The position numbers and the translations under genes are program-made. Below the pieces are notes generated by a model. It saw only the letters and a list, made by a program, of their open reading frames with translations, ran no database searches and was not told the DNA's origin. A stretch of 18,737 bases of DNA, taken from IMG/VR virus record IMGVR_UViG_3300027987_000266; one strand, 5' to 3'. Source of the DNA: a virus. Shown here in pieces: positions 619 to 17,276 of the stretch; within the stretch, counting starts at the first letter, position 1, and each line of letters begins with the position of its first letter.

Positions 619-1070
619 TTCGCCTCCGCTGGAAGGAATCGGCGGCAGGTGTCGGGCTTAATGGGTGTCTTGATTTGGACGAATCGCCGGTCTGGGTCGG
701 CTAAAGTTGCGTGCACTCCGTCGATCTCCATGATCGTGTACTCTTCGTCGTTGTGAATCAGTGTGCCGTGATCACGACTGATAACGACGAGATCACCGGG
801 AGTGCCGGGATCGACGACGTCGGCCAGCAGAATCCAGTATTGGTTGTTGGCGTGTTCCAGCTTCTGCGTGGACTGCAGGAGGTAAAACTCGAAATCGACT
901 GTTCCGGCCATTTCAGCACTCCAACCAAGGGATTTCAGGGCGGTTGCGGCGAGTCCTTGCTTGATGCTCGCCGCCATAAGTGCTTGTTGCGGATCGTCTG
1001 TGGCGAGATAAATGGAGTCGTAGACGCTTCCGATTGAGTTCCTGATTCTCCAAACGTGCATGTTAGTCAT
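615..1070 (-). CDS. hypothetical protein, 151 aa from ATG 1070 (the ORF track extends it to 1106). Member of the C-terminal DLADP-module family (..YTIMEIDGVHATLADPDRRFVQIK..)
   Basis: ATG 1070..1068 sits in a gATGAc-taa context that overlaps the upstream stop by 8 nt. Long ORF. Confidence 0.6.
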   Translation of the reverse strand: MTNMHVWRIRNSIGSVYDSIYLATDDPQQALMAASIKQGLAATALKSLGWSAEMAGTVDFEFYLLQSTQKLEHANNQYWILLADVVDPGTPGDLVVISRDHGTLIHNDEEYTIMEIDGVHATLADPDRRFVQIKTPIKPDTCRRFLPAEAK

Positions 1071-4496: not shown

Positions 4497-4559
4497 TTTG
4501 CTGGTCTCCCGAACCGTGCGTTGTGTGTCTGCACGATTGTTGCAGAGACAGGCTCTCGG

Positions 4560-4895
4560 TTAACCCCCGTTGCCGAGATTCGCCACCGAGTCTTTGATCC
4601 ACTCCTTCACTTGGCGGGCGTTCGTGATGTCGTCTACTTCCTTCTTGCCGTTTGGGGTCTTGGTGAAGGCGTCGCTGTCCGGCTGGTAGTAGGCAGAACG
4701 GTGAATCTTACGACCCCGCTTGAGGCCGTCGCCGGGAGTGATCTTGATTGTCTCCATCTCAACCCGAAGCTTCGGGATCGTTTCAGGCTCCGCAATGTCT
4801 GCACCGGACTTGCCATGAAGGTGGAGTGTTGCTTTGATGGCGAACTGTAGCTGGAATGTGGTCTCTGCGATTTGGATTGACTGCGGTTTGCTCAT
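4560..4895 (-). CDS. hypothetical protein, 111 aa
   Basis: ATGA overlap with the upstream gene. Followed by a 63-nt non-coding gap. Confidence 0.7.
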   Translation of the reverse strand: MSKPQSIQIAETTFQLQFAIKATLHLHGKSGADIAEPETIPKLRVEMETIKITPGDGLKRGRKIHRSAYYQPDSDAFTKTPNGKKEVDDITNARQVKEWIKDSVANLGNGG

Positions 4896-5176
4896 AGAAA
4901 TTCGGTGACTCCTTCGACAATCGCGATGCTGTCCTGATTGTACTGTTGGCGGATTGTGGTGAGGCGTTTCTTGATGTTAGCCAGTTGCTCTTCGCTGTGG
5001 ATCACGCAGACCCAGGCTGCGTTCTGCCACTTGGCCTCCGGTGCTGAGAATCCAGAGAACTGAATCTCAGTGTGATTCACCCACAGAGCCTCGTTGATAT
5101 GACGAATGTAGTCCGCCCACTTGGATTGGCCGAGCTTGTCGTCGCTGTTCCCAATACAAATCGTGATCGTTTTCAT
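4892..5176 (-). CDS. hypothetical protein, 94 aa
   Basis: ATGA overlaps at both ends. Confidence 0.7.
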   Translation of the reverse strand: MKTITICIGNSDDKLGQSKWADYIRHINEALWVNHTEIQFSGFSAPEAKWQNAAWVCVIHSEEQLANIKKRLTTIRQQYNQDSIAIVEGVTEFL

Positions 5177-5553
5177 AGCTTGTCCCTTGTGTCGACACGC
5201 AGAATCAAGTCCTGCTCCGGGTATTCGAGCTGATAGCCGTACCGCCGAGTGTGGCGGTAGCCGCTGTGGTAATTCCTGTATCGCAACGCTTTCTGAAATC
5301 CGTCCTTCTCGCGGTCAGACAGCACTCTGACGACGGCTCGGACCCTGTAGGTGACGTCCTGCCAAGTGATGCGGACCGGCCGTTCAACGAGAGAACCAAC
5401 GACCCAGGAGTGCTTGTCTGGGACGTCTTCGATTTCAACGAGAACGAGGTCGGACGCCGGATCGTCGAGATGCTGCTCGCTCATCGTCCATTCTTCGAAC
5501 GAGCCGCTTTGCAGCTGTTTGACGAGAGCATAGACGTCGATCCGCTTTGTCAT
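5173..5553 (-). CDS. hypothetical protein, 126 aa
   Basis: ATGA overlaps at both ends. Confidence 0.7.
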   Translation of the reverse strand: MTKRIDVYALVKQLQSGSFEEWTMSEQHLDDPASDLVLVEIEDVPDKHSWVVGSLVERPVRITWQDVTYRVRAVVRVLSDREKDGFQKALRYRNYHSGYRHTRRYGYQLEYPEQDLILRVDTRDKL

Positions 5554-6095
5554 ACCACCAACTCCACGTCGAAAGTCGGTGTGCCCTCCTTCTTCTGTTT
5601 ACGCTTCCCGTCCAACTGCTCCCACTCGACGGGCAGTTCTGGGTACTTGCTTCTGCCGAGGCGGTCCTTCTCCGGTCGGTACATTCCGAACATCATCCAC
5701 TGTTCGTTCTCCGGATGCTCCGGAATCGGGATCGTCTCCCACGTGAAGCCAATACAAGGGCGTGGCGAACTCCCTGGCCCGCTCGTCGTGATGCCCTGAC
5801 TGATCCACCAATGACGCTCCCAATCACTCGCAAGGTGCCAAATCCTGTCCCGCCAAATGACCGGCGTCAAGACGCACGAATCACCGGGAATGCGGAACGG
5901 ATTCACCAAAAGGCAGGACTCTTGGTCCGGATCGACTGGCACGCCGCGTTGGACAACCAAGCAACAATCGATGCAGCCGTACGCGTCGTCCGGGCTTTTG
6001 ACGTCTGAGGGGATCAGGCCGTTCAGCTGCCGCCAGTCCGTGATCTCGTAGACTTTCTTGACGAGCCAGATTTGGGCTGTGAGCTTTCTACTCAT
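5550..6095 (-). CDS. hypothetical Trp/Cys-containing protein, about 181 aa from ATG 6095 (the track gives 6122)
   Basis: GGAGG lies 13 nt upstream of ATG 6095. An 8-nt overlap with the upstream stop is more typical here than 35 nt. Confidence 0.6.
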   Translation of the reverse strand: MSRKLTAQIWLVKKVYEITDWRQLNGLIPSDVKSPDDAYGCIDCCLVVQRGVPVDPDQESCLLVNPFRIPGDSCVLTPVIWRDRIWHLASDWERHWWISQGITTSGPGSSPRPCIGFTWETIPIPEHPENEQWMMFGMYRPEKDRLGRSKYPELPVEWEQLDGKRKQKKEGTPTFDVELVV

Positions 6096-6789
6096 CTTGT
6101 GGCTTCTGCCTCCACGCTTCAAGTGCTCCCTCGAGTAGGACTTTGTCGAGGGTGTTAAGTATTGGCTGTTTTCTTGTCATGAACCAGAACGGGTCCCTAC
6201 GGTTCCTGGCTCTCATGAGTCGTTTGTCTTCCGTCCATTTGATCGCTTGAAACTGGAAGTTTTCGTTGACAATTAGACGAATGTTGGGGCCACCACTGTC
6301 TGCACGCTTTTCACCGCAACGAAACAGCGGGTAAGCGTAAGGAGTGTCGGGGACCGCCTTCATGAAGAGGCCGTCCGTCTCCTGCACGACGAATCCGATG
6401 ACCTTTGCCGATTTGATGACGTGGTTGTAGAGTACCGTCCCGTCATAGGTCGTCTTGACGTCTGTTCCGTCGAACAACTGCCACTGCGGCCTGACGAGCA
6501 GATCGTCGTTGAATCGACCAATCTGATAGATTGTTGTCTCTGTGCAATTCGCACAAAGGCGTCCGGCGTCGTAACTGTCAAAGTCGAAGCTCTGCGATTG
6601 CTTGAAGGATCGCTTCTTGCCGCAAAGAGTCCTGACTACTTCTCCGATCTGAGCGTGAACTTGGTGATCCTCGTCCCTGAACGAGACAAGGTGGTTCATC
6701 GTTTTACCGGTTGCAAGTTGCGTGGTGACTTGGTAGAAGTCACGGCTGATGTGCCGAGCGTGAAAAGCTGTTGGGTCGTTCTTACTCAT
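6088..6789 (-). CDS. hypothetical protein, 233 aa. Contains C-x-K..C-x-x-C (LCGKKR...CANCTE), a possible zinc-ribbon.
   Basis: ATG at 6789 with an 8-nt overlap to the upstream stop. Confidence 0.7.
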   Translation of the reverse strand: MSKNDPTAFHARHISRDFYQVTTQLATGKTMNHLVSFRDEDHQVHAQIGEVVRTLCGKKRSFKQSQSFDFDSYDAGRLCANCTETTIYQIGRFNDDLLVRPQWQLFDGTDVKTTYDGTVLYNHVIKSAKVIGFVVQETDGLFMKAVPDTPYAYPLFRCGEKRADSGGPNIRLIVNENFQFQAIKWTEDKRLMRARNRRDPFWFMTRKQPILNTLDKVLLEGALEAWRQKPQDE

Positions 6790-7129
6790 CGGGCACGAGG
6801 TCTTTCGTTTTCATGACGCTGGCGATTTCACGGCCGATCTCACCGAGCTTTCGCCGGAGAGCGAGGGCTGCTTTTCGCGGTGTGTCGTACCCCTCTTCTC
6901 TGATCTTCTTGCCGTTGATCTGTGCCCACCAGCCGCGTCCGTCGTGATTCTCCCCATCAGGTGAGAAGCCGAACACGACGAGTCGCCAAGGGTTCATGTA
7001 GACGAACTCGGTGTGCAGGCGAAGACGCCAGCTGACTTCCATCACTGGCGGTCCCTCCTTGCGGTGTATCGGCTTGCCGATCCTGTGTTCGAAGTCTCTG
7101 ATTGAGAACATGGCTTGCTTTGTCTCCAT
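6782..7129 (-). CDS. hypothetical protein, 115 aa (alternative start ATG 7111 with GGAGA upstream)
   Basis: ORF track. Position in the array. Confidence 0.6.
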   Translation of the reverse strand: METKQAMFSIRDFEHRIGKPIHRKEGPPVMEVSWRLRLHTEFVYMNPWRLVVFGFSPDGENHDGRGWWAQINGKKIREEGYDTPRKAALALRRKLGEIGREIASVMKTKDLVPDE

Positions 7130-7138
7130 GCCGAACTG

Positions 7139-7420
7139 TTACACAGAGGGCGTCGAGGTAAACGACGCGACCAGAGAGAGTTCTACGGCGACATAGCGAG
7201 GATCAACGCCGGATTGAGTGGTGAAAGACTGTATGAACTCGTCTTTGACGAAGCAGTTCTCGTCGAAGTGATCTACGAGATTCCAGGACGGTGCTCGATC
7301 CCCGTGCCATTTTGGCTGCCCAACGGTCCTGTCGAGTCCCCAATGGTCGTCGTCGAGTCGAATGAAAGCGACGACCTGATTCGATTCGCCGCCACGATGG
7401 ATGATCACCTTTCGAGGCAT
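7139..7420 (-). CDS. hypothetical protein, about 93 aa from ATG 7420 (the track gives 7477)
   Basis: GGGAGGG lies upstream of ATG 7420. The 7477 start would overlap the upstream gene by 73 nt. Confidence 0.5.
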   Translation of the reverse strand: MPRKVIIHRGGESNQVVAFIRLDDDHWGLDRTVGQPKWHGDRAPSWNLVDHFDENCFVKDEFIQSFTTQSGVDPRYVAVELSLVASFTSTPSV

Positions 7421-7845
7421 CGTGCTGGTACCCTCCCAAACTTTTTCTGCATGACGATCGCCAAGCATTCCCACCACGTGTCCTCGTCGCCCTCAGGAGG
7501 CTCCGTCACGAGTCCCCTCGCTTTGCATGCAACGAGTCGCGGAGTTTCAATCTCGATCCATCGCCAAATCCGGTCGAACAGGTGAGGGTCGGCGAACATG
7601 AAGTCCCGCCACAGGTCGTAGCCTGTAGTCACTGAGATGCCCTCTGATGCGATGCGAATGCTCCAGTTGACTTCGACGTCCATTTCTCGATACTCGCCGC
7701 TTACGTTCCACGACGTCTCATCGAAATTCGGCAAGTTCGTCATATGCGGTGGATTATGGCTCTCGTAGTTCTTGCCGACTGTGTGGCCAGTCCGTCGCCG
7801 TGCTTGCTCTTTGAGTTCGTCGGCGATGATTTTGTGGATGTTCAT
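7405..7845 (-). CDS. hypothetical protein, 146 aa. DLADP-like module (..WRDFMFADPHLFDRIWRWIEIE..)
   Basis: ATGA overlap at the start. Confidence 0.7.
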   Translation of the reverse strand: MNIHKIIADELKEQARRRTGHTVGKNYESHNPPHMTNLPNFDETSWNVSGEYREMDVEVNWSIRIASEGISVTTGYDLWRDFMFADPHLFDRIWRWIEIETPRLVACKARGLVTEPPEGDEDTWWECLAIVMQKKFGRVPARCLER

Positions 7846-8186
7846 TGTCTCGGTATCGGCGTGTAGAATTCGACTAGCCTGTCGATGCTCGTTGGGTCGT
7901 TCAGGTCAACTGTCAAGCACTCGCCAATTGAGAGCCACGTGTCGTTGAGGTTTACGTTGTGGTGTGTGTGCCCGCATTTGAACTTGAGTGGTTCGCCGCT
8001 CCAAATCAGCTGTTGGTCAATCCCTTTGATCTTGATCGGCTCGATCTTGACGACGCCGAAGATGTGTTCCTGTTCCGGATTTCGTTCGTCGTCGTCTGGT
8101 GCCCAATAGTGGACTTCGACGCCTGTCCTTTCGGTGATCTCAATGACGATCGCTGTGAGCGTGTCGTTCTTTAGAATTCTGTCCAT
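7842..8186 (-). CDS. hypothetical protein, 114 aa. DLADP-like module (..CLTVDLNDPTSIDRLVEFY..)
   Basis: ATGA overlap at the stop. 16-nt overlap at the start. Confidence 0.7.
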   Translation of the reverse strand: MDRILKNDTLTAIVIEITERTGVEVHYWAPDDDERNPEQEHIFGVVKIEPIKIKGIDQQLIWSGEPLKFKCGHTHHNVNLNDTWLSIGECLTVDLNDPTSIDRLVEFYTPIPRQ

Positions 8187-8857
8187 TCGCCGTCGAGTAT
8201 CCTTTTCGTGTTGCCCTCGACTTCGTCCTTTGGTGTGGTGCGTAGGGCAATGACGGTTTGTTCGATCTGTTCGAGTTCCTCATCTTCAATGCGGAAGTGT
8301 CTTTTGACGGCGTGTCGCCACGGGAAGTCGAGGTCGTACGGGTCGATGTTGAACCATTTTCGCAAGGCCCAGGCGACGAGCATTCTGCCGAGTGTGAATT
8401 TCTTGGATTCCTCTTTTGGCGGGGCTTCGTCGGGGACAAAGACGTATTCTTGGTCGGTGTCCTTGTATTGTCGCTTCCATTTGGAGGGGCGTTTGTTGTG
8501 TTCTTTGATGTGCTTGTCGAGGAATGCACCTAGGACGTCACAGAAGTCGGGGCGGTAAATGTCGATTCTGATTTCGTCGAAAGCGTTGACTGGTCTGCCG
8601 GTGATGGTGTGGTAGCGGAGGTCCCACCGCTCCAGCCGGATAGGTTTGTCGTCCTTGAAGGCGATCACTTTCACGGCGGCTCGGTCTGGGTCGTAGGTGA
8701 TGTAGATCGGGCCTTCGTACTCGATCACGCGTTTGGTTTGTTCGGCGTAGCAGACGGTGTGGACGTGGTAGTTGTCGGAACGGTGCTTGATGCCTCGTTC
8801 TCGCATTGTGACGCGGATCAGTTCTCTGACGCCTTTTGTGATTTGTTCCATCACCAT
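8171..8857 (-). CDS. hypothetical protein, 228 aa
   Basis: ATG at 8857. Long clean ORF. Confidence 0.7.
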   Translation of the reverse strand: MVMEQITKGVRELIRVTMRERGIKHRSDNYHVHTVCYAEQTKRVIEYEGPIYITYDPDRAAVKVIAFKDDKPIRLERWDLRYHTITGRPVNAFDEIRIDIYRPDFCDVLGAFLDKHIKEHNKRPSKWKRQYKDTDQEYVFVPDEAPPKEESKKFTLGRMLVAWALRKWFNIDPYDLDFPWRHAVKRHFRIEDEELEQIEQTVIALRTTPKDEVEGNTKRILDGEWTEF

Positions 8858-9006
8858 GCCCTATCTGAAACTCGGTCTGGCAGAAATCGCTTCCAGAGCC
8901 AGTAGTCGAGTGCCTTGTTGAGTGTTGACTTTCTCCATGGCGGCTGCTTTTTTGGCGGCAGGAGAAGCCAGCGTTTGTGGATTTTCTTTGCCTGCCTCTT
9001 TTTCAT
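8851..9006 (-). CDS. small basic Trp-rich protein, 51 aa (MKKRQAKKIHKRWLLLPPKKQPPWRKSTLNKALDYWLWKRFLPDRVSDRAW). Absent from the ORF track because it is under 60 aa.
   Basis: ATG 9006..9004 overlaps the TGA of the upstream gene (ATGA). The stop overlaps the ATGgtg start of the downstream gene by 7 nt. It fills a 145-nt gap. Confidence 0.4.
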   Translation of the reverse strand: MKKRQAKKIHKRWLLLPPKKQPPWRKSTLNKALDYWLWKRFLPDRVSDRAW

Positions 9007-9359
9007 AGTTCTGGATCGTCTGTTACGATGCGTCCGCCACCATCGTACCGCTTGAGAATCACGTAGTTGTGCAAATGGCGGAAGAGATTGGGGTCAGCGT
9101 AGTCGACGGGGTAAACTGAATTGGACGGATGGCCCGGAAGCACGTACGCTCTCGTTGGAGTGCACCGGATTTGATAGAACATCTGGCGACGCCCGCTTGG
9201 AGTCTTGTCGTCTCGAACGTAGTAGTTGCCGCAGACGTTCCACGAGTCCATGCTGTGACGCTGGATTTTGACGCTGTGGTCGCTGACGGTCCGCTTGATC
9301 CATTCTTCGATGCTGATGGCGATCTGGCAGACTGTGTGTTGTCGGTCGTACGTTCTCAT
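9003..9359 (-). CDS. hypothetical protein, 118 aa from ATG 9359. DLADP-like module (..VYPVDYADPNLFRHLHNYVIL..)
   Basis: ATGA overlap with the upstream stop. The track extension to 9377 is less likely. Confidence 0.6.
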   Translation of the reverse strand: MRTYDRQHTVCQIAISIEEWIKRTVSDHSVKIQRHSMDSWNVCGNYYVRDDKTPSGRRQMFYQIRCTPTRAYVLPGHPSNSVYPVDYADPNLFRHLHNYVILKRYDGGGRIVTDDPEL

Positions 9360-9538
9360 GCTGCTTTCTGCCAACAAGTCTTGTCGTTGATCTCTTCGTC
9401 GTAATAGCGGAATTCGGGTTGTCGGCCTTCGTTCTTGAGTGCGGCGATAATCCGGAAAAGGGCCGCTGGCTCTTCGGTCTTGATGGTGGCTGTCATTCCG
9501 TCGAATTTGACTTCGACTTCGGTGGTGTTGGTTCGCAT
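9356..9538 (-). CDS. hypothetical small protein, about 60 aa (start uncertain: 9538 has AAGGA-8nt-ATG; 9496 gives an ATGA overlap and 46 aa)
   Basis: ORF track. Candidate starts all have SD or coupling signals. Confidence 0.4.
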   Translation of the reverse strand: MRTNTTEVEVKFDGMTATIKTEEPAALFRIIAALKNEGRQPEFRYYDEEINDKTCWQKAA

Positions 9539-9891
9539 GGGTTCCATCCTTTGTGAACGTGGTTGTGAACTTTCTCGAAAAACTCAGGATCGGCGAGATC
9601 GAACTCGACGATTGGCTGTGGCCCTTCTGGCTTCTCTTCCTTCTGTGACCACCTGCCGGTAATCAGCCTTCGCTGCAAGTAAAGCTTGCCGTTGGTAAGT
9701 CCAAAGGCGAAGCAAGGAGACACTCTCCAGCTGTCGTCGCTTATAACCGGCTTTGCACAGACGTAGCTCTCATGAGTGTCTGGGGTTTCGCCGCTGTGGA
9801 GTTCGCACTCTTCACAAATCTGATGCCACAGCATCCGATTCTCGAAATCCATCGAGTGCAGCTCTTGTCCTTTGAAGACGGTCACTTTCAT
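9493..9891 (-). CDS. hypothetical Cys/His-containing protein, 132 aa. DLADP-module family (..PIVEFDLADPEFFEKVHNHV..)
   Basis: ATGA overlap at the start. Confidence 0.7.
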   Translation of the reverse strand: MKVTVFKGQELHSMDFENRMLWHQICEECELHSGETPDTHESYVCAKPVISDDSWRVSPCFAFGLTNGKLYLQRRLITGRWSQKEEKPEGPQPIVEFDLADPEFFEKVHNHVHKGWNPCEPTPPKSKSNSTE

Positions 9892-10739
9892 CCGATTGTT
9901 CCAATTGCCGCTCTAATCAACTCCATATCGTCCTCATTCAGAGTCGTGACATCGAGCGGATTATTGCCGGTGACAAAGAGCTTGTCGTCCGCAGTCAGCT
10001 TGATCACGTTTTGGTTGTGCTGGATGGCGACCATAAACTCATCGGCCTTCTCATTCAGCAATACCAGGAAGCTGCGGTGACTGTAATCCTTCACTTCGAT
10101 GAGGAAGTACAGATGCTCTTCCAATTCTGGACTCTCGACGTCCTTGTAAACTCTGGCATTGTCCACGTCCACGCGACAAAATCCGTGGCTGTGGGCGACA
10201 CGGAGGATGTTGCCGCGAATCGCCTTTGAGCCATCCATTCTGATGCGACCTCCGAGCGGTTTTCGCCACTTCATGCGGGCGGCGGCTGTCTTGTCGATTT
10301 TCTTTTTGGTGCGTCCTTTCGGTGGTGCTCCCAGGATTAAGGCGACAGCGGCTGAGGCTTCATCGAAGTCGATTGTCTTGCTTTCTGGTTGGTATTTGCC
10401 GTTTGGCTGCCGAACCACTATGACCAGAATGAAACGTGGCTCCTGAACGTGCTTGTAGCAGGGATAGTAACGAACCTCGATTCCGGTGCCGAGGTCAGTC
10501 CGTAAGCTCCTGGCATAAACTCCGTAGATTCCATCGTCGTCCTGACAGCGGAGGATTTTGGTGTCTTTGTATGGTGCGATGTTCGGTGACGAAATGTGGC
10601 TATTGAGGCTGACTCGCTTGTTGCCACAACAGATGGCGTCATGCAGAGCACGCTGAATGCTAATAACGGCCATACCGTTGGCCACGAGGTTTGTCTGCTG
10701 GCTCTCGTCAGCCGGAACGTCGATAGTTTCGTGAGTCAT
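9888..10739 (-). CDS. hypothetical protein, 283 aa. The C-terminal half resembles a PD-(D/E)xK nuclease core (..RVDVD..20aa..LYFLIEVKD..).
   Basis: ATGA overlaps at both ends. The D...E-V-K spacing is typical of restriction-endonuclease-like, Hjc or VRR-NUC folds. This call is by motif only. Confidence 0.65.
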   Translation of the reverse strand: MTHETIDVPADESQQTNLVANGMAVISIQRALHDAICCGNKRVSLNSHISSPNIAPYKDTKILRCQDDDGIYGVYARSLRTDLGTGIEVRYYPCYKHVQEPRFILVIVVRQPNGKYQPESKTIDFDEASAAVALILGAPPKGRTKKKIDKTAAARMKWRKPLGGRIRMDGSKAIRGNILRVAHSHGFCRVDVDNARVYKDVESPELEEHLYFLIEVKDYSHRSFLVLLNEKADEFMVAIQHNQNVIKLTADDKLFVTGNNPLDVTTLNEDDMELIRAAIGTIG

Positions 10740-11338
10740 CCGGCAATTCCTGTGAGTTTGTCTTTGATGAAGCTGAGGACTGCGGCTTCGTTGTCGGGAT
10801 GAAAGGGCTTCTTATCCCACATCAGAGTGTTTTCGGCTGGATTGTAAGTGAGAACCCAGTTGTTGTAGTTCTCATTCCAAACACGTGCCTTGACTTTGAT
10901 CTCAAGCGTCGCTGCCGGATCTTCGACCGGCTTCTTGTTCTTGCTGCGGATTTCGAGAGTAGCCTCAAGAACGACCATCGGGGAGAATGTCTGGTTGCCG
11001 AGCTTGAGAGTGGTGGCCTTGGCGGCTTCTCTTCGATTGTTTATGTCGGCTTCGATCAGGTCGCCGATCGGGTTCCCCTGCAGATCGTGCATTCGGTGGA
11101 ATTCCGCCAGATGCTGCTCACTGAGGGCAAACTCTTCGTCGTAGGCACAGGCCCACGTCATGTCGGTGACTTGGCCGTTCTGCAGTTTCTTGCCGGTGTG
11201 GCGGCACGGAATGTTGTTGCGGTGTCTGTCTTTGACGTAGGCGGTGACGCCGCTTTGGTTCAGGCGGAAGACGTCGTATTCCTTGGTCGGATCGAACTCG
11301 CCTTTGCCGCACTTGATGAATTCGAGAGGGTACTTCAT
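10736..11338 (-). CDS. hypothetical protein, 200 aa from ATG 11338 (MKYPLEFIKCGKGEFDP...). The track extension to 11818 is an Arg-rich alternate frame of the upstream gene.
   Basis: ATGA overlap with the upstream stop at 11335. Confidence 0.65.
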   Translation of the reverse strand: MKYPLEFIKCGKGEFDPTKEYDVFRLNQSGVTAYVKDRHRNNIPCRHTGKKLQNGQVTDMTWACAYDEEFALSEQHLAEFHRMHDLQGNPIGDLIEADINNRREAAKATTLKLGNQTFSPMVVLEATLEIRSKNKKPVEDPAATLEIKVKARVWNENYNNWVLTYNPAENTLMWDKKPFHPDNEAAVLSFIKDKLTGIAG

Positions 11339-11895
11339 CGGCCCAGAGACTCCCTCAGTTTCTTGTGGAAGCGAGCGATTCGTTTTTTCAAGACCGGAGC
11401 TTTGAACCAATGGTAGACGACTTCCTGCCGAAAGCTGGTGAGATGCTGGACGTGCGTGTGGTATGAGCACGTCTCCGTCGAAATCCAGGCCCGCGTCTTC
11501 GTCGGGTCGTTCGTCTCCAAATCGTAGTAGAGAACGAGAGCCGTCAAGTCCAGCCCCTCCTTCTCTTTCATGTAGTTGGACATTGGGACGTCTGAGAGTG
11601 CTTCGATCTTTGGCACGTTCACGCCATGCACGATCACGAGATCGAGCGGATAGGCGTTCGGCGTTGCAAGTCCGTCGAGTCCTTCGCTGAATCCGATCTC
11701 GACATTCGCCGGATCGAACGGGTTGCCGAGCAGCAGGAAGCCGCCGAGCTTGGCTTGTGTCGACGAATAGTTGCTGGTCGTCCTGGCCCAGATTTGGTGA
11801 AGCGGAGCGTTCGCCCACCCCATCGGGATGAAAGCGTCTGCTTCGTTTTGCGGAAAGACGATCCGCTCGAATCGACCTTTGGGGACGTCACTCAT
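11335..11895 (-). CDS. hypothetical protein, 186 aa from ATG 11895 (MSDVPKGRFERIVF...)
   Basis: GGAGAAcactgcATG gives a strong SD. It is preceded by a 78-nt non-coding gap. Confidence 0.65.
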   Translation of the reverse strand: MSDVPKGRFERIVFPQNEADAFIPMGWANAPLHQIWARTTSNYSSTQAKLGGFLLLGNPFDPANVEIGFSEGLDGLATPNAYPLDLVIVHGVNVPKIEALSDVPMSNYMKEKEGLDLTALVLYYDLETNDPTKTRAWISTETCSYHTHVQHLTSFRQEVVYHWFKAPVLKKRIARFHKKLRESLGR

Positions 11896-11903
11896 GCAGT
11901 GTT

Positions 11904-11959
11904 CTCCGTTGCGGGGGCGTGGTGATCTGTACACAAGAGTGTTACAAGACCCAACGGAG
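11904..11959 (-). promoter_or_regulatory. Inverted repeat CTCCGTTG(c)GG ... CCCAACGGAG flanking about 38 nt. In the minus-strand mRNA the 3' arm contains the GGAG of the SD of gene 11335..11895.
   Basis: 8 bp plus a bulge plus 2 bp of complementarity, read from the sequence. The SD GGAGAA (revcomp of 11902..11907) lies in the arm. Confidence 0.3.
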
Positions 11960-11973
11960 CGTAAAACGCAGAG

Positions 11974-12528
11974 CTAACCCATTGTCGAGTACACGTGGAG
12001 AATGTCGAGTTCTGTGGCCGCCTTCTTGGCATGCTCTACAGCCAGCTCGATGCTGTCAGGGCATTCCAGATAGTAAGTGCGAGGCCCAAACTCCGTGAGA
12101 TGGTCGTAGTCCTTCCGTCTGTCTGGCCAAATCGCTTCGTCAACGTGGATGTTCGGACGATCGCACTTATAGTTGGCCTGGACTGTAAGCGGGCAGGCTC
12201 GCATCACGGAGTCACAAGCAACCCTGTACTTCCCGATACGCCAGTGTTCCGGTTCCGGCGTTAGATAGAGAATTGCGGGTCCTGGCTTTACGTCCTGGTC
12301 CTCACTCTTGGGTGTCGGTTTGTGACGCTGAAAATCGAGCCAAATGAAGCCCTCGACCACTGTGAGATTGAGCGGTCGTAGCTCTTCGGCTATACCGAGG
12401 ATTACGGCGAAGTTTTCTTTGTGGGCGTCGAGGATGCCGCCGTTGACTCTTGTCTCGATCTTCAAAGTGCTGGCCTTTCGTTCGGATAGCCGAGTCTCTT
12501 CAAGTGCCAGTGTAGCTTTTTGATGCAA
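11974..12528 (-). CDS. hypothetical protein, 184 aa from TTG 12528, or 164 aa from TTG 12465 (TTGA overlap with SD-like GAAAGG). C-terminal variant of the module (..YYLECPDSIELAVEHAKKAATEL..)
   Basis: ORF track. Start is uncertain. Confidence 0.5.
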   Translation of the reverse strand: MHQKATLALEETRLSERKASTLKIETRVNGGILDAHKENFAVILGIAEELRPLNLTVVEGFIWLDFQRHKPTPKSEDQDVKPGPAILYLTPEPEHWRIGKYRVACDSVMRACPLTVQANYKCDRPNIHVDEAIWPDRRKDYDHLTEFGPRTYYLECPDSIELAVEHAKKAATELDILHVYSTMG

Positions 12529-12920
12529 GATTCTATGGAGTCAGGATCGGCTAAGTCCCACTTGTACGGACTTGTGGGAGTATCGCCGACGACTCGTGCT
12601 CCGAATTCGTCGTGGCCGATCTCTCGGTGGAGTACCAGTTCGAGACGGTTACCACGGATTTTGAACGTGGCGGCCTTGAAGTATCGGTCTTTGAAGGCTT
12701 CGATTTCTTCGGCTGTCTCTGCCAGACTCGCATCAGCACCACGGTAAATGTCGTAGTGGGCGAAGAGCGTGCCGACGCCTCTTTTGATGAGCAGGTGGTC
12801 CCACGAAGATAGGTACAAGCGAAGGGCGTCGGCAATAGTGCCGACGCCCATCGAATTCTCTGCTCGACGTCTGCTTTGTTCGCTTCTGTCGATTGCTTGT
12901 TGGGACGATCTGACCGTCAC
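12462..12920 (-). CDS. hypothetical protein, 152 aa. DLADP-module family (..KAATFKIRGNRLELVLH..YKWDLADPDSIESCIKKLHWHLKRL..)
   Basis: GTGA overlap with the ligase stop. Confidence 0.7.
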   Translation of the reverse strand: MTVRSSQQAIDRSEQSRRRAENSMGVGTIADALRLYLSSWDHLLIKRGVGTLFAHYDIYRGADASLAETAEEIEAFKDRYFKAATFKIRGNRLELVLHREIGHDEFGARVVGDTPTSPYKWDLADPDSIESCIKKLHWHLKRLGYPNERPAL

Positions 12921-15202
12921 GCTTCGACCGGCTCCTTTTTCGGCAGTTCGGCCTGACCATCCAGCACTTTGCGGATGAAGGCCAAGCTGACGATCTGCGT
13001 GTAGCCGTTGGCTTCCGCATTTTTGGCCTTGTTGGTGACCTGCGTGGCGTCTTTCTGGATCAGGAAGTCGGGAGAGGGCTTGGACTTGGCCACGCCGCTC
13101 GTGAAGACTCCGCCCTTGGCTTCGATCTCGTCCATGTAGGCACGAGTCCCGGTGATGCAGAAGGTGAGTCCGGCGAGGGGCAGATTCGGGTCTGCTTGTC
13201 CGTTGCCGGTGGTCGCGGTTGGGGCGGGCTTTGCTGCGGGGTAGTCGATGGTCACGCCGACTGCCAGCAGCTTGTCGATCAATCCACGGCTCTCTTTGAT
13301 GCCGTGAACCACCGCGTCGCGGATCGTGTCGCCGAGTCCCTCAATCTCCATCTTCGCGAATTCGTCAGTGTCCAGCCAGTCTTCGAGCTTGTCGAGACGG
13401 CCACCGGCTGCGTCGCGGAGCAGGATCACGCGTCGGCGTCCGAGCAGGTCGATACCGAGTGATCCGAGGAAGACCTCCAGCTTGAGATTCCGCTTGTTCT
13501 GGATGTTGTTCACGATCGTCTCGGCTCGCGATCGTCCCACTCGCCCGCCGCTGTCAAGCGTCAGGTTCTCCAAATCCTCAGGCTTGAGGTTGTAGAGATC
13601 GGCGGGATCGCTGACGATGTTGTTGTCCCACATGGCCTTGAGGATGCCGTCACCGATGTTCAGGATTCCGGTTCCCTTCTTCGACGAACCGATCCACTTG
13701 TCGACTTTGCCCTTCAATGCCTCAGGGCATTTGTCGGCTTGTGAGCAGTACGTCACAGCTCCCTTCTTGCCGCGATAGTTGCGGGTGGTCGGCTCGCCGC
13801 AGGACGGGCATCGCTTCGGCTCTTCGATTGGCTTGCGATTCGGGGATTCGGTGACGCACCGAATGACCTTCGGGATAATGTCCCCGGCCAGCACGACCTC
13901 GACTTCGTCGTTGATGGCGACGCCGAGCCGCTCGATCTCGTCCCAATTGTTCAGCAGTGCGTGCGTCACGTTGACGCCACCGATGCGGACTTCCTCGAAG
14001 ACGGCGGTCGGGTAGATTCCTCCGGTGTGGCCGACGCTGAGAATGACGTCCTTGATTGTCGTCGTGTTCGATTTGTGCGGGAACTTGACGGCACGAGCGT
14101 ACTTGGGCCGCAGCCGCGTCTTGATGTCGTCGGTGATGAATGGAAGGTGGTAGGCGATCTCATTGAGGACCACCACGATTCCGTCGATTTCGAACGGCAG
14201 CTTGTCGCGGTTGGCAACTGTCTCGGTGTAGAAGTCGTTGAACTCGTCGACAGTTGTGCAGACTTTGTACGGGACGGGCTGGAAGCCGAGGCCGCGAAGG
14301 CTCTCCATCTTCTCCGCTTCTGTGTGGAACTTGGCGGCGTCGTGCTGCTCATCGCCATCGAACTCGACATTGAAAGCGATGAAGGTGATTCTCTCGGAAT
14401 CCTGGCCGTCGTCGCGACCGAACACGCCGTTCCCGATGTTGCGGGGATTGCTGCGGTCGGCTTCGGGAATCTGATCGAACGGCTGACCGGCGTCACGCTC
14501 GACGACCTCTTTGTAGTCGGCGACGTACATGACCGCCTCACCGCGAACGTCGCAGCTGACGGAGTGCGGCAGGATTGTGGGCAGTCGCCGGAAGTTGGCT
14601 CCGTTCACCGTGATGTCTTGGCCGGTCTCGCCGTCACCGCGTGTGGCGACACGGACCAGTTTGCCATTCTCGTAGGTGGCACAGATGCTTCCGCCATCGA
14701 CCTTGAGAGAGGCGAAAATCTCGACAGGCAGATCGGCGTCGGGCACGTCGTTGACAATCCCCTCTGCCGCGAGACGCTGGCGAGTGGCTTCGACGACGTC
14801 GGCTGCAGCTGAGTGCAGCTTCGTCGTTACGTCTTCGAGCCACGGCTCGTAACCAGCGATGCCGTTGTCGGTGTTGTCGAGCGATCCCATCGGGATGTTG
14901 TGCTTGACCTTGTTGCGAAGGTCGCCAGCGTCGAACGGGAGGCCGACTCGACCAATCCGCTCGTCATTGGGATCGAGTTGTTTCAGAGCGGGCCGCAACA
15001 GATCGTAGTCGGAGTCCGGCATGATCTGAGACGAGCCTGGGCGGTAGTAGGCGACGTCGGCTTTGTCGATGATCAGCCGAAGCTCGTCGGCCGTCAGTTC
15101 GTTGACGGCGTAGCCTGCTCCGTCTTGGTAGAGCTTGAAGAGTTCGACTCGACGATCGGACTCACGGATCAGGTTGAGCCATTGCGGTGCAGCGTTCGGC
15201 AT
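12917..15202 (-). CDS. ligA: NAD(+)-dependent DNA ligase LigA, 761 aa
   Basis: Adenylation KxDG block SLKVDGGSICATYENGKLVRVATRGDGETGQDIT aligns closely with E. coli LigA. N-terminal Ia-like YRPGSSQIMPDSDYDLLRPALKQL. Four-Cys zinc finger CPSCGEP...YCSQADKCPE. HhH region GLGDTIRDAVVHGI. C-terminal BRCT-like LAGLTFCITGTRAYMDEIEAKGGVF... Confidence 0.93.
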   Translation of the reverse strand: MPNAAPQWLNLIRESDRRVELFKLYQDGAGYAVNELTADELRLIIDKADVAYYRPGSSQIMPDSDYDLLRPALKQLDPNDERIGRVGLPFDAGDLRNKVKHNIPMGSLDNTDNGIAGYEPWLEDVTTKLHSAAADVVEATRQRLAAEGIVNDVPDADLPVEIFASLKVDGGSICATYENGKLVRVATRGDGETGQDITVNGANFRRLPTILPHSVSCDVRGEAVMYVADYKEVVERDAGQPFDQIPEADRSNPRNIGNGVFGRDDGQDSERITFIAFNVEFDGDEQHDAAKFHTEAEKMESLRGLGFQPVPYKVCTTVDEFNDFYTETVANRDKLPFEIDGIVVVLNEIAYHLPFITDDIKTRLRPKYARAVKFPHKSNTTTIKDVILSVGHTGGIYPTAVFEEVRIGGVNVTHALLNNWDEIERLGVAINDEVEVVLAGDIIPKVIRCVTESPNRKPIEEPKRCPSCGEPTTRNYRGKKGAVTYCSQADKCPEALKGKVDKWIGSSKKGTGILNIGDGILKAMWDNNIVSDPADLYNLKPEDLENLTLDSGGRVGRSRAETIVNNIQNKRNLKLEVFLGSLGIDLLGRRRVILLRDAAGGRLDKLEDWLDTDEFAKMEIEGLGDTIRDAVVHGIKESRGLIDKLLAVGVTIDYPAAKPAPTATTGNGQADPNLPLAGLTFCITGTRAYMDEIEAKGGVFTSGVAKSKPSPDFLIQKDATQVTNKAKNAEANGYTQIVSLAFIRKVLDGQAELPKKEPVEA

Positions 15203-15286
15203 GTGTTTTGCGTCCTATGCTGGAGGTTGGGAATCTGCTTTGTTGTTGCAGGGCGAATACTCCCCGTTAATCAAATACCGCAAGAC

Positions 15287-15793
15287 TCACTCGGTGATTC
15301 CTGTGGCTTCTCGCCACTTGAGAAGGCGATAGTTGCCCTTGATTGTCGCAAAGAGGCGGTCCATGCTGTCGGGTGCGTCAAGGTCGATCTCTACGGTGTC
15401 GTCCACCGTATCGATTTCTTGGTATCCCGTTCCCTCGCACTCCCAACAACTGTCGTCTCCGTCTCCCCGCCGCTCAATTTCTTCCGGACAGGTGCACTGA
15501 CCAGTGCCCTCACAGTCCGGGCATTCTTTTTGGCTTACGTCTGTGAAGACGAGTTGGCAACGCAAACGTGGATTCGCCCGCAGCTTGAGAATGCAGACGC
15601 GGGACCAAACTGGCTTAGCGTGCCCTAGAAGAATGGAGAGGCCGTCCTCACAAGTCCGCGTCATATCCTGAAACAGAGCGAGAACGGCATGAGTTCTGTG
15701 GACTGTAACTCGCATGTACGGCCACGACCGTAGCTCGTCGGCAATTGCTCTTTTGAACTCTTTGGGGATTTGTTTTGTGCTAACGTCTCTCAC
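15287..15793 (-). CDS. DnaJ-type zinc-finger (CxxCxGxG x2) protein, 168 aa, with a C-terminal DLADP-like module (..VEIDLDAPDSMDRLFATIKGNYRLL..)
   Basis: CPDCEGTGQC and CWECEGTGYQ match the DnaJ CR-domain repeat CxxCxGxG. GTG start with a 14-nt overlap. Confidence 0.6.
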   Translation of the reverse strand: MRDVSTKQIPKEFKRAIADELRSWPYMRVTVHRTHAVLALFQDMTRTCEDGLSILLGHAKPVWSRVCILKLRANPRLRCQLVFTDVSQKECPDCEGTGQCTCPEEIERRGDGDDSCWECEGTGYQEIDTVDDTVEIDLDAPDSMDRLFATIKGNYRLLKWREATGITE

Positions 15794-16439
15794 CCTTACT
15801 CTCGTCGTACCAGAGGTCCGGTCGCTGTTTAAGAACCCACTCGAAGGTGAGCGGCTCTGTCTCTTTCGACGGATCGTACTCTTCCTCGATCATCACGGCG
15901 ATTTCAAGAGCTTCGGCCAACAGTTCGTCTTTGTTCCGTTGCTGGATTGGCTTGTGCTGCATCCCCTCGAATTCGAGTTCGTGAAGCGTCTGCTTGAGAT
16001 CGAACGGTTTCCACTGGTCGATCATCGCCCAATACTGGCGTCCGATAACGCACATGAGGATTCTGACGGAGTGCAACCGAGTCGGATCGCCTTTCTTCGT
16101 CTCTTCGGCGGCTTGTTTCTCTGCCCACTCCCAAATCTGATCGGTTGTAGTGCGAGATTCACCCCACTGGTCGACTTCCCACAGAAACGAGCCGTTGTTG
16201 GACTGTTGGCCGAAGTCCTGGTACTCGATGCCAGTCTCTCCGTCCGCATCGTCGAGTTGGCCGTTCGGTTCGTACGTGATCTCTTCGACGTCCTTCTCCT
16301 TCCAGCCGAGTGCTCGCAGACCGTCTTTCAGGACTTCGAGCCATTCGACATTCTTGCTGTCGAATACGAGGACGCGACGCTCTCTGTCTTGACTGGCGTC
16401 CTCTGGTGTAAACGTCTGGCGGATTTTGAACTTGCTCAT
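15780..16439 (-). CDS. hypothetical acidic Trp-rich protein, 219 aa
   Basis: AGGAGtaacATG gives a strong SD. The gene starts immediately after the TAA of the upstream gene. Confidence 0.75.
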   Translation of the reverse strand: MSKFKIRQTFTPEDASQDRERRVLVFDSKNVEWLEVLKDGLRALGWKEKDVEEITYEPNGQLDDADGETGIEYQDFGQQSNNGSFLWEVDQWGESRTTTDQIWEWAEKQAAEETKKGDPTRLHSVRILMCVIGRQYWAMIDQWKPFDLKQTLHELEFEGMQHKPIQQRNKDELLAEALEIAVMIEEEYDPSKETEPLTFEWVLKQRPDLWYDESKGERR

Positions 16440-16440
16440 G

Positions 16441-16869
16441 TTACTCCTGCGTCTGCACTGACCAATGGGTTTTGGTTCCTTCCCGATTCACGCTCGCTTT
16501 CCGGAGTGCGTCGTCCAACAGGGACAAGGAGAGGGCGACGGTCTTCGGATCGTCGATCTCGTCGGGATTCAGTTCGATCAGGTTCTTCGTCTCGACGGTG
16601 ATTGGCGGGTGTAGACGGTCACTCAGGAGCAGCTTGAGGTCCGAGCCGCTGCCAAGATGCACCGGACCGAGACAGTCGGGATTCGTGCCACCGCCAACGG
16701 TCTTGACCATCGCTGGCTCGCTCGGTCCGAAGTTGGCTTTTGTCCTGATTTGTTCATCGAACTCGACAATGTAACCCTCAGCATAACGGCTGAGGAAGTC
16801 GAGAAGGATTTGTGTGCCGCTACTCCTGCTGAGGTTGCGGCTGCCGCTGACGTCTACAAAGATTCTCAT
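16441..16869 (-). CDS. compact vWA/MIDAS-like protein, about 142 aa from ATG 16869 (MRIFVDVSGSRN...VGGGTNPD...LKLLLSD)
   Basis: ATGA overlap with the upstream stop. D-x-S-x-S at the N-terminus, GGGT about 50 aa later and LLLSD about 25 aa after that follow MIDAS spacing. Motif-level only. Confidence 0.55.
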   Translation of the reverse strand: MRIFVDVSGSRNLSRSSGTQILLDFLSRYAEGYIVEFDEQIRTKANFGPSEPAMVKTVGGGTNPDCLGPVHLGSGSDLKLLLSDRLHPPITVETKNLIELNPDEIDDPKTVALSLSLLDDALRKASVNREGTKTHWSVQTQE

Positions 16870-17234
16870 GTTTGTCTCCCGAACTCGGCGATTTTCGCCA
16901 AAAGTGATTGCTTGTCCGGACCAGCAAGGCCGGTCTCGGTGTCCAAGTACACACCAGTGTCGAGGCATTGTTGGCACAAACACCATGCAGCAGCGAAGAC
17001 GTCGAAGCTGTGCCGATCCGTGTCAATGTACCACACCGGATGCCGCTCGTGGCAGCAGTCGCAAGGCCCACTGTCCGGCTCGTTCATCGGCTGGATCAGC
17101 AGATTCTCAGGACGCACGCGGAGACGCTGAATGAGATCGACGATCGGCTGTAGAATCTCACCGATGCCCTCGTCGGGGCGTCCGTCGATCAGACCTTCGA
17201 GTGTGTCAATGGCGTCTTGTACTTCGCTCGACAT
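16866..17234 (-). CDS. hypothetical Cys-rich protein, 122 aa (..CDCCHERH..CLCQQC..)
   Basis: AGGAGAaacaacaATG gives a strong SD. Confidence 0.7.
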   Translation of the reverse strand: MSSEVQDAIDTLEGLIDGRPDEGIGEILQPIVDLIQRLRVRPENLLIQPMNEPDSGPCDCCHERHPVWYIDTDRHSFDVFAAAWCLCQQCLDTGVYLDTETGLAGPDKQSLLAKIAEFGRQT

Positions 17235-17250
17235 TGTTGTTTCTCCTGCT

Positions 17251-17265
17251 CTTTTGTTACAAAAG
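17251..17265. promoter_or_regulatory. 15-bp perfect palindrome CTTTTGT-T-ACAAAAG in the 42-nt gap upstream of the SD of gene 16866..17234. Candidate operator/promoter element.
   Basis: Read directly from the sequence. The loop is too tight for a simple hairpin, which favours a dimeric protein-binding site. It overlaps the recurring TTGTTACAA-AGACC motif. Confidence 0.3.
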
Positions 17266-17276
17266 ACCGTCGCTGG

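What the first reader, a model, noticed from the sequence alone, without database searches (positions are those of the whole stretch)
4537..17269. Recurring motif TTGTT(R)CA(R)RGMC in four of the few intergenic gaps (candidate promoter or regulator site)
Plus-strand matches:
- ttgttgcagagac at 4537..4549
- ttgttgttgcagggc at about 15239..15254
- gtgttacaagacc at 11939..11951
- ttttgttacaaaagacc at 17253..17269
Each lies about 20 to 55 nt upstream of the start codon of the next minus-strand gene (4496, 15202 ligA, 11895, 17234). On the coding strand they read G(K)YCTTGYAACAA. Finding a shared element in most of the non-coding gaps of such a compact array suggests a phage-specific promoter or a binding site for a phage-encoded regulator. 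The 17251..17265 copy is a perfect 15-bp palindrome.
Basis: seen in the sequence. Interest (0 to 1): 0.55.

Follow-up and report, generated by a model that had tools for sequence, protein, structure and literature searches.

The report
Conserved two-part promoter of huge phages
The repeated motif is the downstream half of a two-part promoter that starts each transcription unit in this stretch of an uncultured huge phage and recurs in its relatives, but its sequence fits no standard bacterial promoter and the protein that reads it was not found.

Summary
On the coding (minus) strand the core TGYAACA occurs 6 times. Each is preceded 13-14 nt upstream by TTWAC and followed, after exactly 6 nt, by a pyrimidine-purine step. 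That step is the probable transcription start.

The full pattern TTWAC-N13/14-BGYAACA-N6-YR was tested outside the window:
- It found 3 more gaps in flanking DNA of the same phage and flipped strand with a minus-strand gene.
- It totals 28 sites in the first 71 kb of the 85 kb read, and 0 in about 23 kb around a tail gene.
- It recurs 11 times in 25 kb of a 408-kb relative, upstream of the ligase gene in two more distant relatives, and just upstream of tRNA genes.
- It is about 120 times rarer in 1.26 Mb of bacterial DNA.

This is a class-specific (early/middle) promoter. It lacks the T at -7 of classic sigma-70 promoters. Its AACA(-11..-8)-N6-YR(+1) geometry matches the late promoter of Bacillus phage AR9, but it also has a -35-like element. 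No sigma factor or RNA polymerase gene was found in the DNA reached. Verdict: a new variant of a known kind, of moderate interest.

The parts
17247..17280 (-). Promoter upstream of the 122-aa gene (ATG 17234). Upstream element TTAAC at 17280..17276, 14-nt spacer, core TGTAACA at 17261..17255, N6, then CA with predicted +1 at A17247. The leader is 13 nt and carries the Shine-Dalgarno sequence GGAG.
   Evidence: (26.1 bits)
15236..15270 (-). Promoter upstream of ligA (ATG 15202). TTAAC at 15270..15266, 15-nt spacer, TGCAACA at 15250..15244, predicted +1 at A15236. The same element sits upstream of ligA in relatives L001 and L003.
   Evidence: (26.8 bits)
11932..11965 (-). Promoter upstream of the 186-aa gene (ATG 11895). 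TTTAC at 11965..11961, 14-nt spacer, TGTAACA at 11946..11940, predicted +1 at G11932.
   Evidence: (21.6 bits)
7129..7162 (-). TTTAC at 7162..7158, 14-nt spacer, TGTAACA at 7143..7137 (overlapping the TAA stop of the upstream ORF). Predicted +1 is A7129, the A of the ATG of the 115-aa gene, so the mRNA may be leaderless. The alternative is a start at ATG 7111, preceded by GGAGA.
   Evidence: (16.3 bits)
4530..4563 (-). Promoter upstream of the 112-aa gene (ATG 4496). TTAAC at 4563..4559 (overlapping the TAA stop of the upstream gene), 14-nt spacer, TGCAACA at 4544..4538, predicted +1 at A4530.
   Evidence: (22.9 bits)
977..1011 (-). Candidate internal promoter inside the 151-aa ORF (615..1070). 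TTATC at 1011..1007 (one mismatch), 15-nt spacer, CGCAACA at 991..985. Predicted +1 is A977, the A of an in-frame ATG. It scores 20.7 bits with the out-of-window matrix. It is less certain than the five intergenic copies.

Best explanation
The motif is the proximal (-10-like) half of a bipartite promoter. Its consensus is (GA)TTWAC(S) at -36..-28, a variable 13-14-nt spacer, YYBGYAACA at -16..-8, six variable nt, then Y(-1)R(+1). In the window it defines five transcription units, possibly six, in an otherwise gap-free array of minus-strand genes.

Proposed mechanism:
- A multisubunit RNA polymerase carrying a sigma-type specificity subunit contacts the upstream block as duplex DNA.
- It contacts the GYAACA block at the upstream edge of the melted region.
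- It starts at the purine 8 nt after AACA, giving leaders of 0-92 nt that carry the GGAG ribosome-binding site.

I think the specificity factor travels with the phage clade. It would be either a phage-encoded sigma-like subunit acting on the host core enzyme or a phage-encoded polymerase, rather than the host's housekeeping sigma. The element serves the non-structural (early/middle) genes only.

Shown: the motif, its statistics, position, orientation, conservation and regional distribution.
For: Non-random and tied to gaps:
- 5 of 6 TGYAACA copies lie in about 1.6% of the window, all on the coding strand.
- The bipartite regex gives 5 observed against 0.024 expected.
- 0 of 31 upstream regions of operon-internal genes carry it.

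Predictive outside the window:
- The pattern found 3 further gaps in the 9 kb upstream and a flipped copy before a minus-strand gene.
- Where independent gene calls exist, 14 of 15 hits lie in the roughly 6% of that stretch that is non-coding; for 13 of them the predicted +1 is 0-92 nt before the next start on the same strand.
- A matrix trained outside the window recovers the window sites.

Start-site signal: Y at -1 in 35 of 42 sites and R at +1 in 39 of 42. These positions were not constrained by the search.

Not translational:
- Copies lie 9-40 nt upstream of tRNA-Leu genes in L003.
- Copies follow terminator-like hairpins upstream of ligA in L001 and L003.

Clade-wide conservation:
- 28 sites in 85 kb of the same phage.
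- 11 sites in 25 kb of a 408-kb relative with 44% G+C.
- The helicase promoter keeps both blocks while the spacer diverges.

Rare elsewhere: 5 hits in 1.26 Mb from 80 bacterial loci of many phyla.

Class-specific: no copy in about 23 kb around the 2363-aa tail gene and glycan genes, nor in 26.5 kb of a relative's structural region.

Not a housekeeping -10:
- T at -7 in only 7 of 42 sites, while A-A-C-A at -11..-8 is fixed by the search pattern.
- TATAAT occurs 3 times and TATAAATA 0 times in 75.7 kb.

No known RNA: no Rfam family and no shared RNA fold in the gaps.
Against: - No transcription start has been mapped. Everything rests on sequence.
- No sigma-70-family, gp55-like, T7-like or split beta/beta' gene was found among about 190 proteins scanned, nor by a DFDGD search. 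About 89 kb of the 146.8-kb contig was never read, so this is absence of evidence only.
- The window's array of small genes with no family match looks like an early host-takeover module. Early genes normally need the host's own holoenzyme or a virion-delivered enzyme, which favours the host-sigma rival.
- TTWAC resembles the canonical -35 sequence TTGACA.
- The TG at -14/-13 of the window copies resembles an extended -10.
- Host promoters are degenerate, so the bacterial control is weak evidence against a host sigma.
Confidence: 0.55

Rival explanations
1. It is a promoter, but the host's own sigma factor reads it. That would be a primary sigma with unusual -10 specificity in an unstudied host phylum, or an extended -10 class promoter: -35 TTWAC, 16-nt spacer, TGn, AACAnT. 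On this reading the motif marks ordinary early promoters.
For: - The -35/-10 architecture and spacing fit.
- TTWAC matches TTGACA at 4 of 6 positions.
- All window copies carry TG at -14/-13.
- In the TG sub-class, by my own count from the sites listed, 11 of 20 copies read AACAnT.
- The window looks like an early gene array, which needs a polymerase present at the moment of injection.
- No phage sigma or RNA polymerase gene was found.
Against: - No preference for T at -7 (7 of 42) or at the next position (11 of 42).
- C at -9 and A at -10 are kept in every copy, including the five window copies that were first picked out by TGYAACA alone. Primary sigma factors do not require these bases.
- The motif is conserved in phages with 40-57% G+C from different samples.
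- No enrichment in any of 80 bacterial loci, which include Planctomycetota, Verrucomicrobiota, Bacteroidota, Bacillota and Acidobacteriota.
- The canonical TATAAT is nearly absent.
Confidence: 0.28
2. It is the binding site of a phage- or host-encoded transcription regulator (activator or repressor) that merely accompanies promoters of another, less conserved type.
For: - Two blocks about two helical turns apart could fit a dimeric or tandem DNA-binding protein.
- One copy (17265..17251) is palindromic.
- The upstream block is centred near -31, similar to the MotA box of T4 middle promoters (my recollection, not checked here).
Against: - The two halves differ and the element is strictly directional.
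- Dyad symmetry is absent in the other copies.
- No other shared promoter-like element exists in the gaps.
- In two gaps only 13-17 nt separate the predicted start from the start codon, leaving no room for a separate promoter downstream.
- The Y-R step at a fixed distance points to initiation.
Confidence: 0.08
3. It is a chance or compositional recurrence, or an RNA-level signal such as a processing site or translation enhancer.
For: - The raw count of TGYAACA in the window (6 against 3 expected) is not significant on its own.
Against: - The positional, strand and bipartite statistics argue against chance.
- The pattern predicted sites outside the window.
- It occurs upstream of tRNA genes.
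- There is no Rfam match and no common fold.
Confidence: 0.02

Closest known systems
Late promoters of Bacillus phage AR9, read by its non-virion multisubunit RNA polymerase with the subunit gp226: A(-11)ACA-(6N)-T(-1)A/G(+1) (PMC5312081, PMC7598289)
   Same: The tetranucleotide AACA is the same, the 6-nt gap is the same, and a pyrimidine-purine step follows with the purine as start. Here that is Y at -1 in 35 of 42 sites and R at +1 in 39 of 42. Both occur in very large phage genomes.
   Different: - AR9 promoters have no -35-like element. Here a TTWAC block at fixed spacing accompanies every copy, and cores that lack it are found only inside genes, at roughly the rate chance would give.
- AR9 recognition needs deoxyuridine on the template strand. 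This phage encodes ThyX and dUTPase, so it probably has thymine DNA.
- No split beta/beta' or gp226-like gene was found in the 85 kb read.
- The start sites here are inferred, not mapped.
Sigma-70-family -35/-10 promoters, including extended -10 promoters and T4 early promoters (-35 GTTTAC; from memory)
   Same: Two blocks centred near -32 and -11, separated by a variable spacer of fixed length. The upstream block TTWAC resembles TTGACA and GTTTAC. The window copies carry TG just upstream of the proximal block. The start lies 6-8 nt downstream of the proximal block.
   Different: - The proximal block is GYAACA, not TATAAT.
- There is no T at -7.
- TG is one position closer to the core than in extended -10 promoters.
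Promoters of extracytoplasmic-function (ECF) sigma factors (-35 with AAC, -10 with CGT/GTC) and promoters of phage-encoded sigma factors (SPO1 gp28, phiEco32 gp36; from memory)
   Same: An information-rich, phage- or regulon-specific bipartite consensus. About two thirds of copies carry AAC in the upstream block. Some copies read CGTAACA. A published review notes that jumbo phages without their own RNA polymerase usually encode sigma homologues (PMC7598289).
   Different: The -10 block does not match any ECF consensus I know. The upstream block also occurs as TTTAC. No sigma gene was found next to any copy.
T4 middle promoters (MotA box centred at -30 plus a sigma-70 -10; from memory)
   Same: An upstream element centred near -31 at a short fixed distance from the proximal element. 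They serve replication and nucleotide-metabolism genes.
   Different: The sequences are unrelated (TGCTT against TTWAC). The -10 here is not TAnnnT. No MotA or AsiA homologue was detected.
Promoters of T7-like single-subunit RNA polymerases
   Same: A highly conserved phage-specific promoter repeated before each transcription unit.
   Different: T7-type promoters are one contiguous block of about 23 bp reaching +6. Here two blocks are separated by a non-conserved spacer.

Membership tests
Housekeeping sigma-70 (sigma-A) promoter | -35 hexamer resembling TTGACA | tested here: met
   TTWAC at -33..-29 is present in all copies, in part because the search pattern required it. It matches TTGACA at 4 of 6 positions.
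Housekeeping sigma-70 (sigma-A) promoter | -10 hexamer TATAAT with A at -11 and T at -7 | tested here: not met
   A at -11 is present, but T at -7 occurs in only 7 of 42 sites and at the next position in 11 of 42. AAC at -11..-9 is present in every copy and is required by the pattern. TATAAT occurs only 3 times in 75.7 kb.
Housekeeping sigma-70 (sigma-A) promoter | The same consensus upstream of host housekeeping genes | tested here: inconclusive
   The host is unknown. In 80 bacterial loci (1.26 Mb, many phyla) there are 5 hits and no locus is enriched. Host promoters are degenerate and the true host may not be in the sample.
AR9-type promoter of a non-virion RNA polymerase | AACA at -11..-8, a 6-nt gap, then T(-1) and A/G(+1) | tested here: met
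   AACA-N6 is followed by Y in 35 of 42 sites (T in 21, C in 14) and R in 39 of 42. The numbering rests on an inferred start site.
AR9-type promoter of a non-virion RNA polymerase | No upstream (-35) element needed; the short motif is sufficient | tested here: not met
   Every intergenic copy carries TTWAC 13-14 nt upstream. The 12 cores that lack it all lie inside genes, which is the chance rate.
AR9-type promoter of a non-virion RNA polymerase | The phage encodes split beta/beta' subunits and a gp226-like factor | tested here: inconclusive
   No DFDGD motif or RNA-polymerase Pfam hit in 85 kb. About 89 kb of the contig was not read.
AR9-type promoter of a non-virion RNA polymerase | Uracil-containing genome (template-strand dU at -11 and -10) | not testable with these tools
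   Base modification cannot be read from sequence. The presence of ThyX and dUTPase argues indirectly for thymine DNA.
ECF-sigma promoter | -35 with AAC, a 16-17-nt spacer, -10 CGT/GTC, and a cognate sigma gene nearby | tested here: inconclusive
   The upstream block is TTAAC in about two thirds of copies and TTTAC in the rest. The proximal block begins CGT in only a minority. No sigma gene was found.
T7-like single-subunit RNA polymerase promoter | Contiguous conservation from about -17 to +6 | tested here: not met
   Information content is near zero from -28 to -17 and from -7 to -3. The spacer diverges between orthologous promoters.
Operator of a dimeric repressor | Dyad symmetry, with function independent of orientation | tested here: not met
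   All 43 copies are co-oriented with the downstream gene. Only one copy is palindromic, and the complementarity test is near null.

The most novel reading that the evidence does not exclude
The AACA(-11..-8)-N6-YR(+1) core is read the way AR9 reads its late promoters, by a non-sigma specificity subunit of a phage-encoded (possibly virion-delivered) multisubunit RNA polymerase. The difference is that here it would act on thymine DNA and be combined with an upstream duplex element. That would extend AR9-type promoter recognition to an unrelated, uncultured clade of huge phages. It would also explain how an apparently early gene array is transcribed without any host-type promoter.
Probability: 0.12. 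Interest if true: 0.8.

Novelty: new variant of a known kind. Interest (0 to 1): 0.5.

Why it matters
- It gives a testable transcription map, with promoters, predicted start sites and operon boundaries, for a genome region in which 36 of 37 proteins have no family assignment.
- It supplies a simple sequence signature (TTWAC-N13/14-BGYAACA-N6-YR) that separates the non-structural part of these huge-phage genomes from the structural part and links phages of about 90 to 408 kb.
- The -10-like block is incompatible with ordinary primary-sigma recognition, so the motif points to an unidentified specificity factor or an unusual host sigma. It provides the bait for finding that factor by DNA pull-down, in vitro transcription, or co-occurrence of the motif with candidate genes.
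- The geometric match to the AR9 late promoter raises a concrete question that can be answered: is this convergence or shared mechanism?

Tried and rejected
- **TGYAACA as a -35 element of an ECF sigma** (it resembles the B. subtilis sigma-X/W/M -35 sequences). Rejected because the start codon or tRNA begins only 7-24 nt downstream in several copies.
- **Sigma-54.** The GG-N10-GC spacing, checked by eye, does not fit, and the TGTAACA copies lack GC.
- **Canonical sigma-70 scan.** 9 hits against 6.0 expected, none in the gaps.
- **T4-type late promoter TATAAATA.** Absent.
- **Hairpin or cruciform promoter of the N4 type.** No site-specific complementarity.
- **Known RNA families and shared folds.** None.
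- **MAFFT alignment of the three ligA upstream regions.** It failed to register the motif because the flanks are unalignable. The helicase pair aligned well.
- **Close relatives in GenBank phages.** None by DNA or by two proteins.
- **Host inference from the phage sulfatase.** Best bacterial hits are only about 31% identical and spread over many phyla.
- **Search for the polymerase or sigma gene.** I walked the same phage to 85.4 kb plus a 17.5-kb contig, using all collection scans and all 12 family searches. I found ligase, helicase, ThyX, dUTPase, RNase H, sugar-modification genes and a giant tail protein. I found no sigma or RNA polymerase gene.
- **Two short Pfam Gp23 hits.** One, checked against PHROGs, is a roughly 30-aa stretch of a 286-aa protein, not a capsid gene; the other was not traced to a particular protein.

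Full report
**Setting.**
All credible genes in the 18.7-kb window are on the minus strand. They are packed with 1-16-nt overlaps. Independent gene calls on the source contig agree with this model.
- Of 37 proteins, only the NAD-dependent DNA ligase has a firm Pfam or PHROGs assignment; the only other match is one marginal PHROGs hit (E = 0.00089).
- Only five real gaps exist: 17235-17276, 15203-15286, 11896-11973, 7130-7138 and 4497-4559.
- The apparent gap at 515-614 is filled by a 35-aa ORF.
- The window comes from a 111-kb JGI contig (3300027985) that overlaps a 146.8-kb IMG/VR contig of the same phage. The genome is therefore at least about 175 kb.
- A relative sharing three genes at 54-69% amino-acid identity is 408 kb.

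**Checking the observation.**
With up to 2 mismatches it picks up as many coding hits as true ones.
- The 7-mer TGYAACA occurs six times, always on the coding strand. The sixth (381..375) is inside a gene.
- Reading the flanks shows that each gap copy is preceded 13-14 nt upstream by TTAAC or TTTAC.
- The bipartite pattern has 5 hits in the window against 0.024 expected. No shuffle out of 500 gave more than one.
- None of the 31 upstream regions of operon-internal genes has it.

**Out-of-sample tests.**
The pattern was derived from the window, so I tested it elsewhere.
- In the 9 kb upstream of the window on the source contig it picks out three more gaps.
- Downstream it finds a copy on the opposite strand, exactly upstream of a gene on that strand.
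- Allowing C or G at the first core position brings in further gaps.
- In 36 kb with independent gene calls, 14 of 15 hits are in the roughly 6% that is non-coding. For 13 of them the predicted start is 0-92 nt before the next start codon on the same strand.
- A weight matrix trained only on 38 sites outside the window scores the five window sites at 16.3-26.8 bits and one further gene-internal site (1011..977) at 20.7 bits. The next-best hit scores 7.4 bits, and the maximum in shuffles is 13.9.
- Core motifs without the upstream half occur 12 times in 56 kb, all inside genes, which is the chance rate.

**Anatomy.**
I aligned 42 sites from this phage and three relatives, numbering from the purine 8 nt after AACA. 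The alignment gives:

G-36 A-35 T-34 T-33 T-32 A-31 A-30 C-29, then a spacer with no information, then Y-16 Y-15 B-14 G-13 Y-12 A-11 A-10 C-9 A-8, then six uninformative positions, then G-2, Y-1 and R+1.

- Y at -1 occurs in 35 of 42 sites and R at +1 in 39 of 42.
- The positions at -36..-34, -16/-15 and -2..+1 were not part of the search pattern. Their conservation is therefore independent evidence. The fixed Y-R step is the usual signature of an initiation site.
- The 15-bp palindrome at 17265..17251 is real but particular to that copy.

**Why a promoter.**
- The element is directional and flips with gene orientation. One divergent pair shares an overlapping TTAA.
- In relatives L001 and L003 it follows terminator-like hairpins upstream of ligA.
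- In L003 it lies 9 and 40 nt upstream of tRNA-Leu genes. That rules out a translational role.
- Several copies leave only 13-24 nt before the start codon. The conserved block must therefore be the proximal (-10-like) element, not a -35 element.
- No Rfam family and no common RNA fold is present.
- Orthologous helicase promoters in this phage (57% G+C) and the 408-kb relative (44% G+C) keep both blocks, a 5' stem-loop and the ribosome-binding region, while the spacer has diverged.

**Distribution.**
- This phage has 28 strict sites in the first 71 kb. That stretch holds arrays of genes with no family match, and replication, nucleotide-metabolism and sugar-modification genes.
- It has none in the next roughly 23 kb, which holds a 2363-aa tail protein and a glycan-synthesis cluster.
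- A relative's 26.5-kb structural region has none either.
- The 408-kb relative has 11 sites in 25 kb. The roughly 90-kb relatives have few.
- In 1.26 Mb from 80 bacterial loci there are 5 hits, a density about 120 times lower.
- The element is therefore specific to a gene class, most simply early/middle genes. The temporal assignment is an inference from gene content.
- Two sub-classes exist. All window copies have TG at -14/-13 and mostly a CA start. The replication-gene region uses C/G-G with GGnGnGTA and a 5' hairpin.

**Which enzyme reads it.**
This is not settled.
- The two-block geometry is that of sigma-70-family promoters, and TTWAC resembles TTGACA.
- The proximal block lacks T at -7 (7 of 42), and AAC is kept at -11..-9 in every copy, which primary sigmas do not require.
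- TATAAT and the T4 late box TATAAATA are essentially absent.
- The core matches the mapped late promoter of Bacillus phage AR9, AACA-(6N)-TA/G with the last base as start. That promoter is read on the template strand by the phage's own RNA polymerase plus gp226 (PMC5312081, PMC7598289).
- AR9 promoters have no upstream element and need deoxyuridine. This phage encodes ThyX and dUTPase.
- No sigma, gp55-like, single-subunit or split beta/beta' gene was found in the 85 kb I could read. About 89 kb remained out of reach.
- I lean towards a specificity factor that travels with the phage clade (0.55), because the motif is conserved across 40-57% G+C and has a non-canonical -10.
- A host sigma comes second (0.28), because the window looks like an early module that must be transcribed at the moment of injection.

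**Comparison and verdict.**
Conserved phage-specific promoters are a well-known kind of feature, so the category is not new.
- This consensus matches none I could find in two literature searches. The literature search here is limited.
- The phage clade has no cultured or GenBank relative.
- The finding is confirmed and extended to five or six bipartite promoters in the window, with predicted start sites.
- It is best filed as a new variant of a known kind. Interest is moderate. It would rise if the AR9-like reading, or an unusual host sigma, were demonstrated.

Noticed in passing
L010:15365-15981 (same phage, about 2.4 kb beyond the low end of the window): A 617-nt non-coding region holds four copies of GGKTTTCCTnnGAGGAAATCG, each a 7+7 inverted repeat, with spacing of 83, 146 and 96 nt. 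A copy of the promoter motif (TTAACT-N13-GGCAACA) precedes them and has no coding gene downstream. This could be a replication origin with iterons, or a non-coding transcript.
   Followed up: partly
L013:7480-7505 and L014:9950-9975 (upstream of the ResIII helicase), and upstream of the 496-aa gene: A stem-loop, GAGGGGACGACAGCCCCTC, lies at about +4..+22 of the predicted transcripts. It is conserved between this phage and the 408-kb relative even though the promoter spacer has diverged. It may be a stabilising or regulatory element in the 5' untranslated region.
   Followed up: partly
window 7129 and 977: The predicted +1 coincides with the A of an ATG at two sites: the called start of the 115-aa gene, and an in-frame internal ATG of the 151-aa ORF. 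This suggests leaderless mRNAs and possibly a shortened protein isoform.
   Followed up: partly
window, the C-terminal parts of at least 8 of 37 proteins (for example genes 18041-18511, 17277-18044, 15287-15793, 12462-12920, 11974-12465, 7842-8186, 7405-7845, 2890-3234): These proteins share a C-terminal motif resembling hDLADPDSI(D/E)xhhxxh. Three more show it by eye. The gene array therefore appears to be an expanded family of paralogues of unknown function.
   Followed up: partly
L016:220-1449 (minus strand) and neighbouring genes; L217/L218: The phage encodes a sulfatase (PDB hits down to 1e-34) and radical-SAM proteins. It also encodes ThyX, dUTPase, RNase H, a sugar epimerase, glycosyltransferases and methyltransferases. 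ThyX together with dUTPase argues for thymine-containing DNA.
   Followed up: partly
L219:15115-21771 (minus strand); full length 2363 aa in L222:8498-15589: A giant tail protein has matches to a 'tail tip cage gp23' chain, an LDL-receptor-type beta-propeller and a weak VWA domain match. Homologues with 61% and 54% identity lie on 189-kb and 408-kb contigs. The promoter motif is absent from this region.
   Followed up: partly
L220:23516-23695: A relative encodes a CsrA (carbon storage regulator) homologue, with PDB hits around 1e-14.
   Followed up: partly
merged phage sequence about 50.78 kb (L016, the divergent intergenic region): Two oppositely oriented copies of the promoter share an overlapping TTAA in their upstream blocks, making a compact divergent promoter pair.
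   Followed up: no
window 511-618: A 35-aa ORF with ATGA-type overlaps at both ends fills what looks like a 100-nt gap. This explains why that stretch carries no promoter motif.
   Followed up: partly
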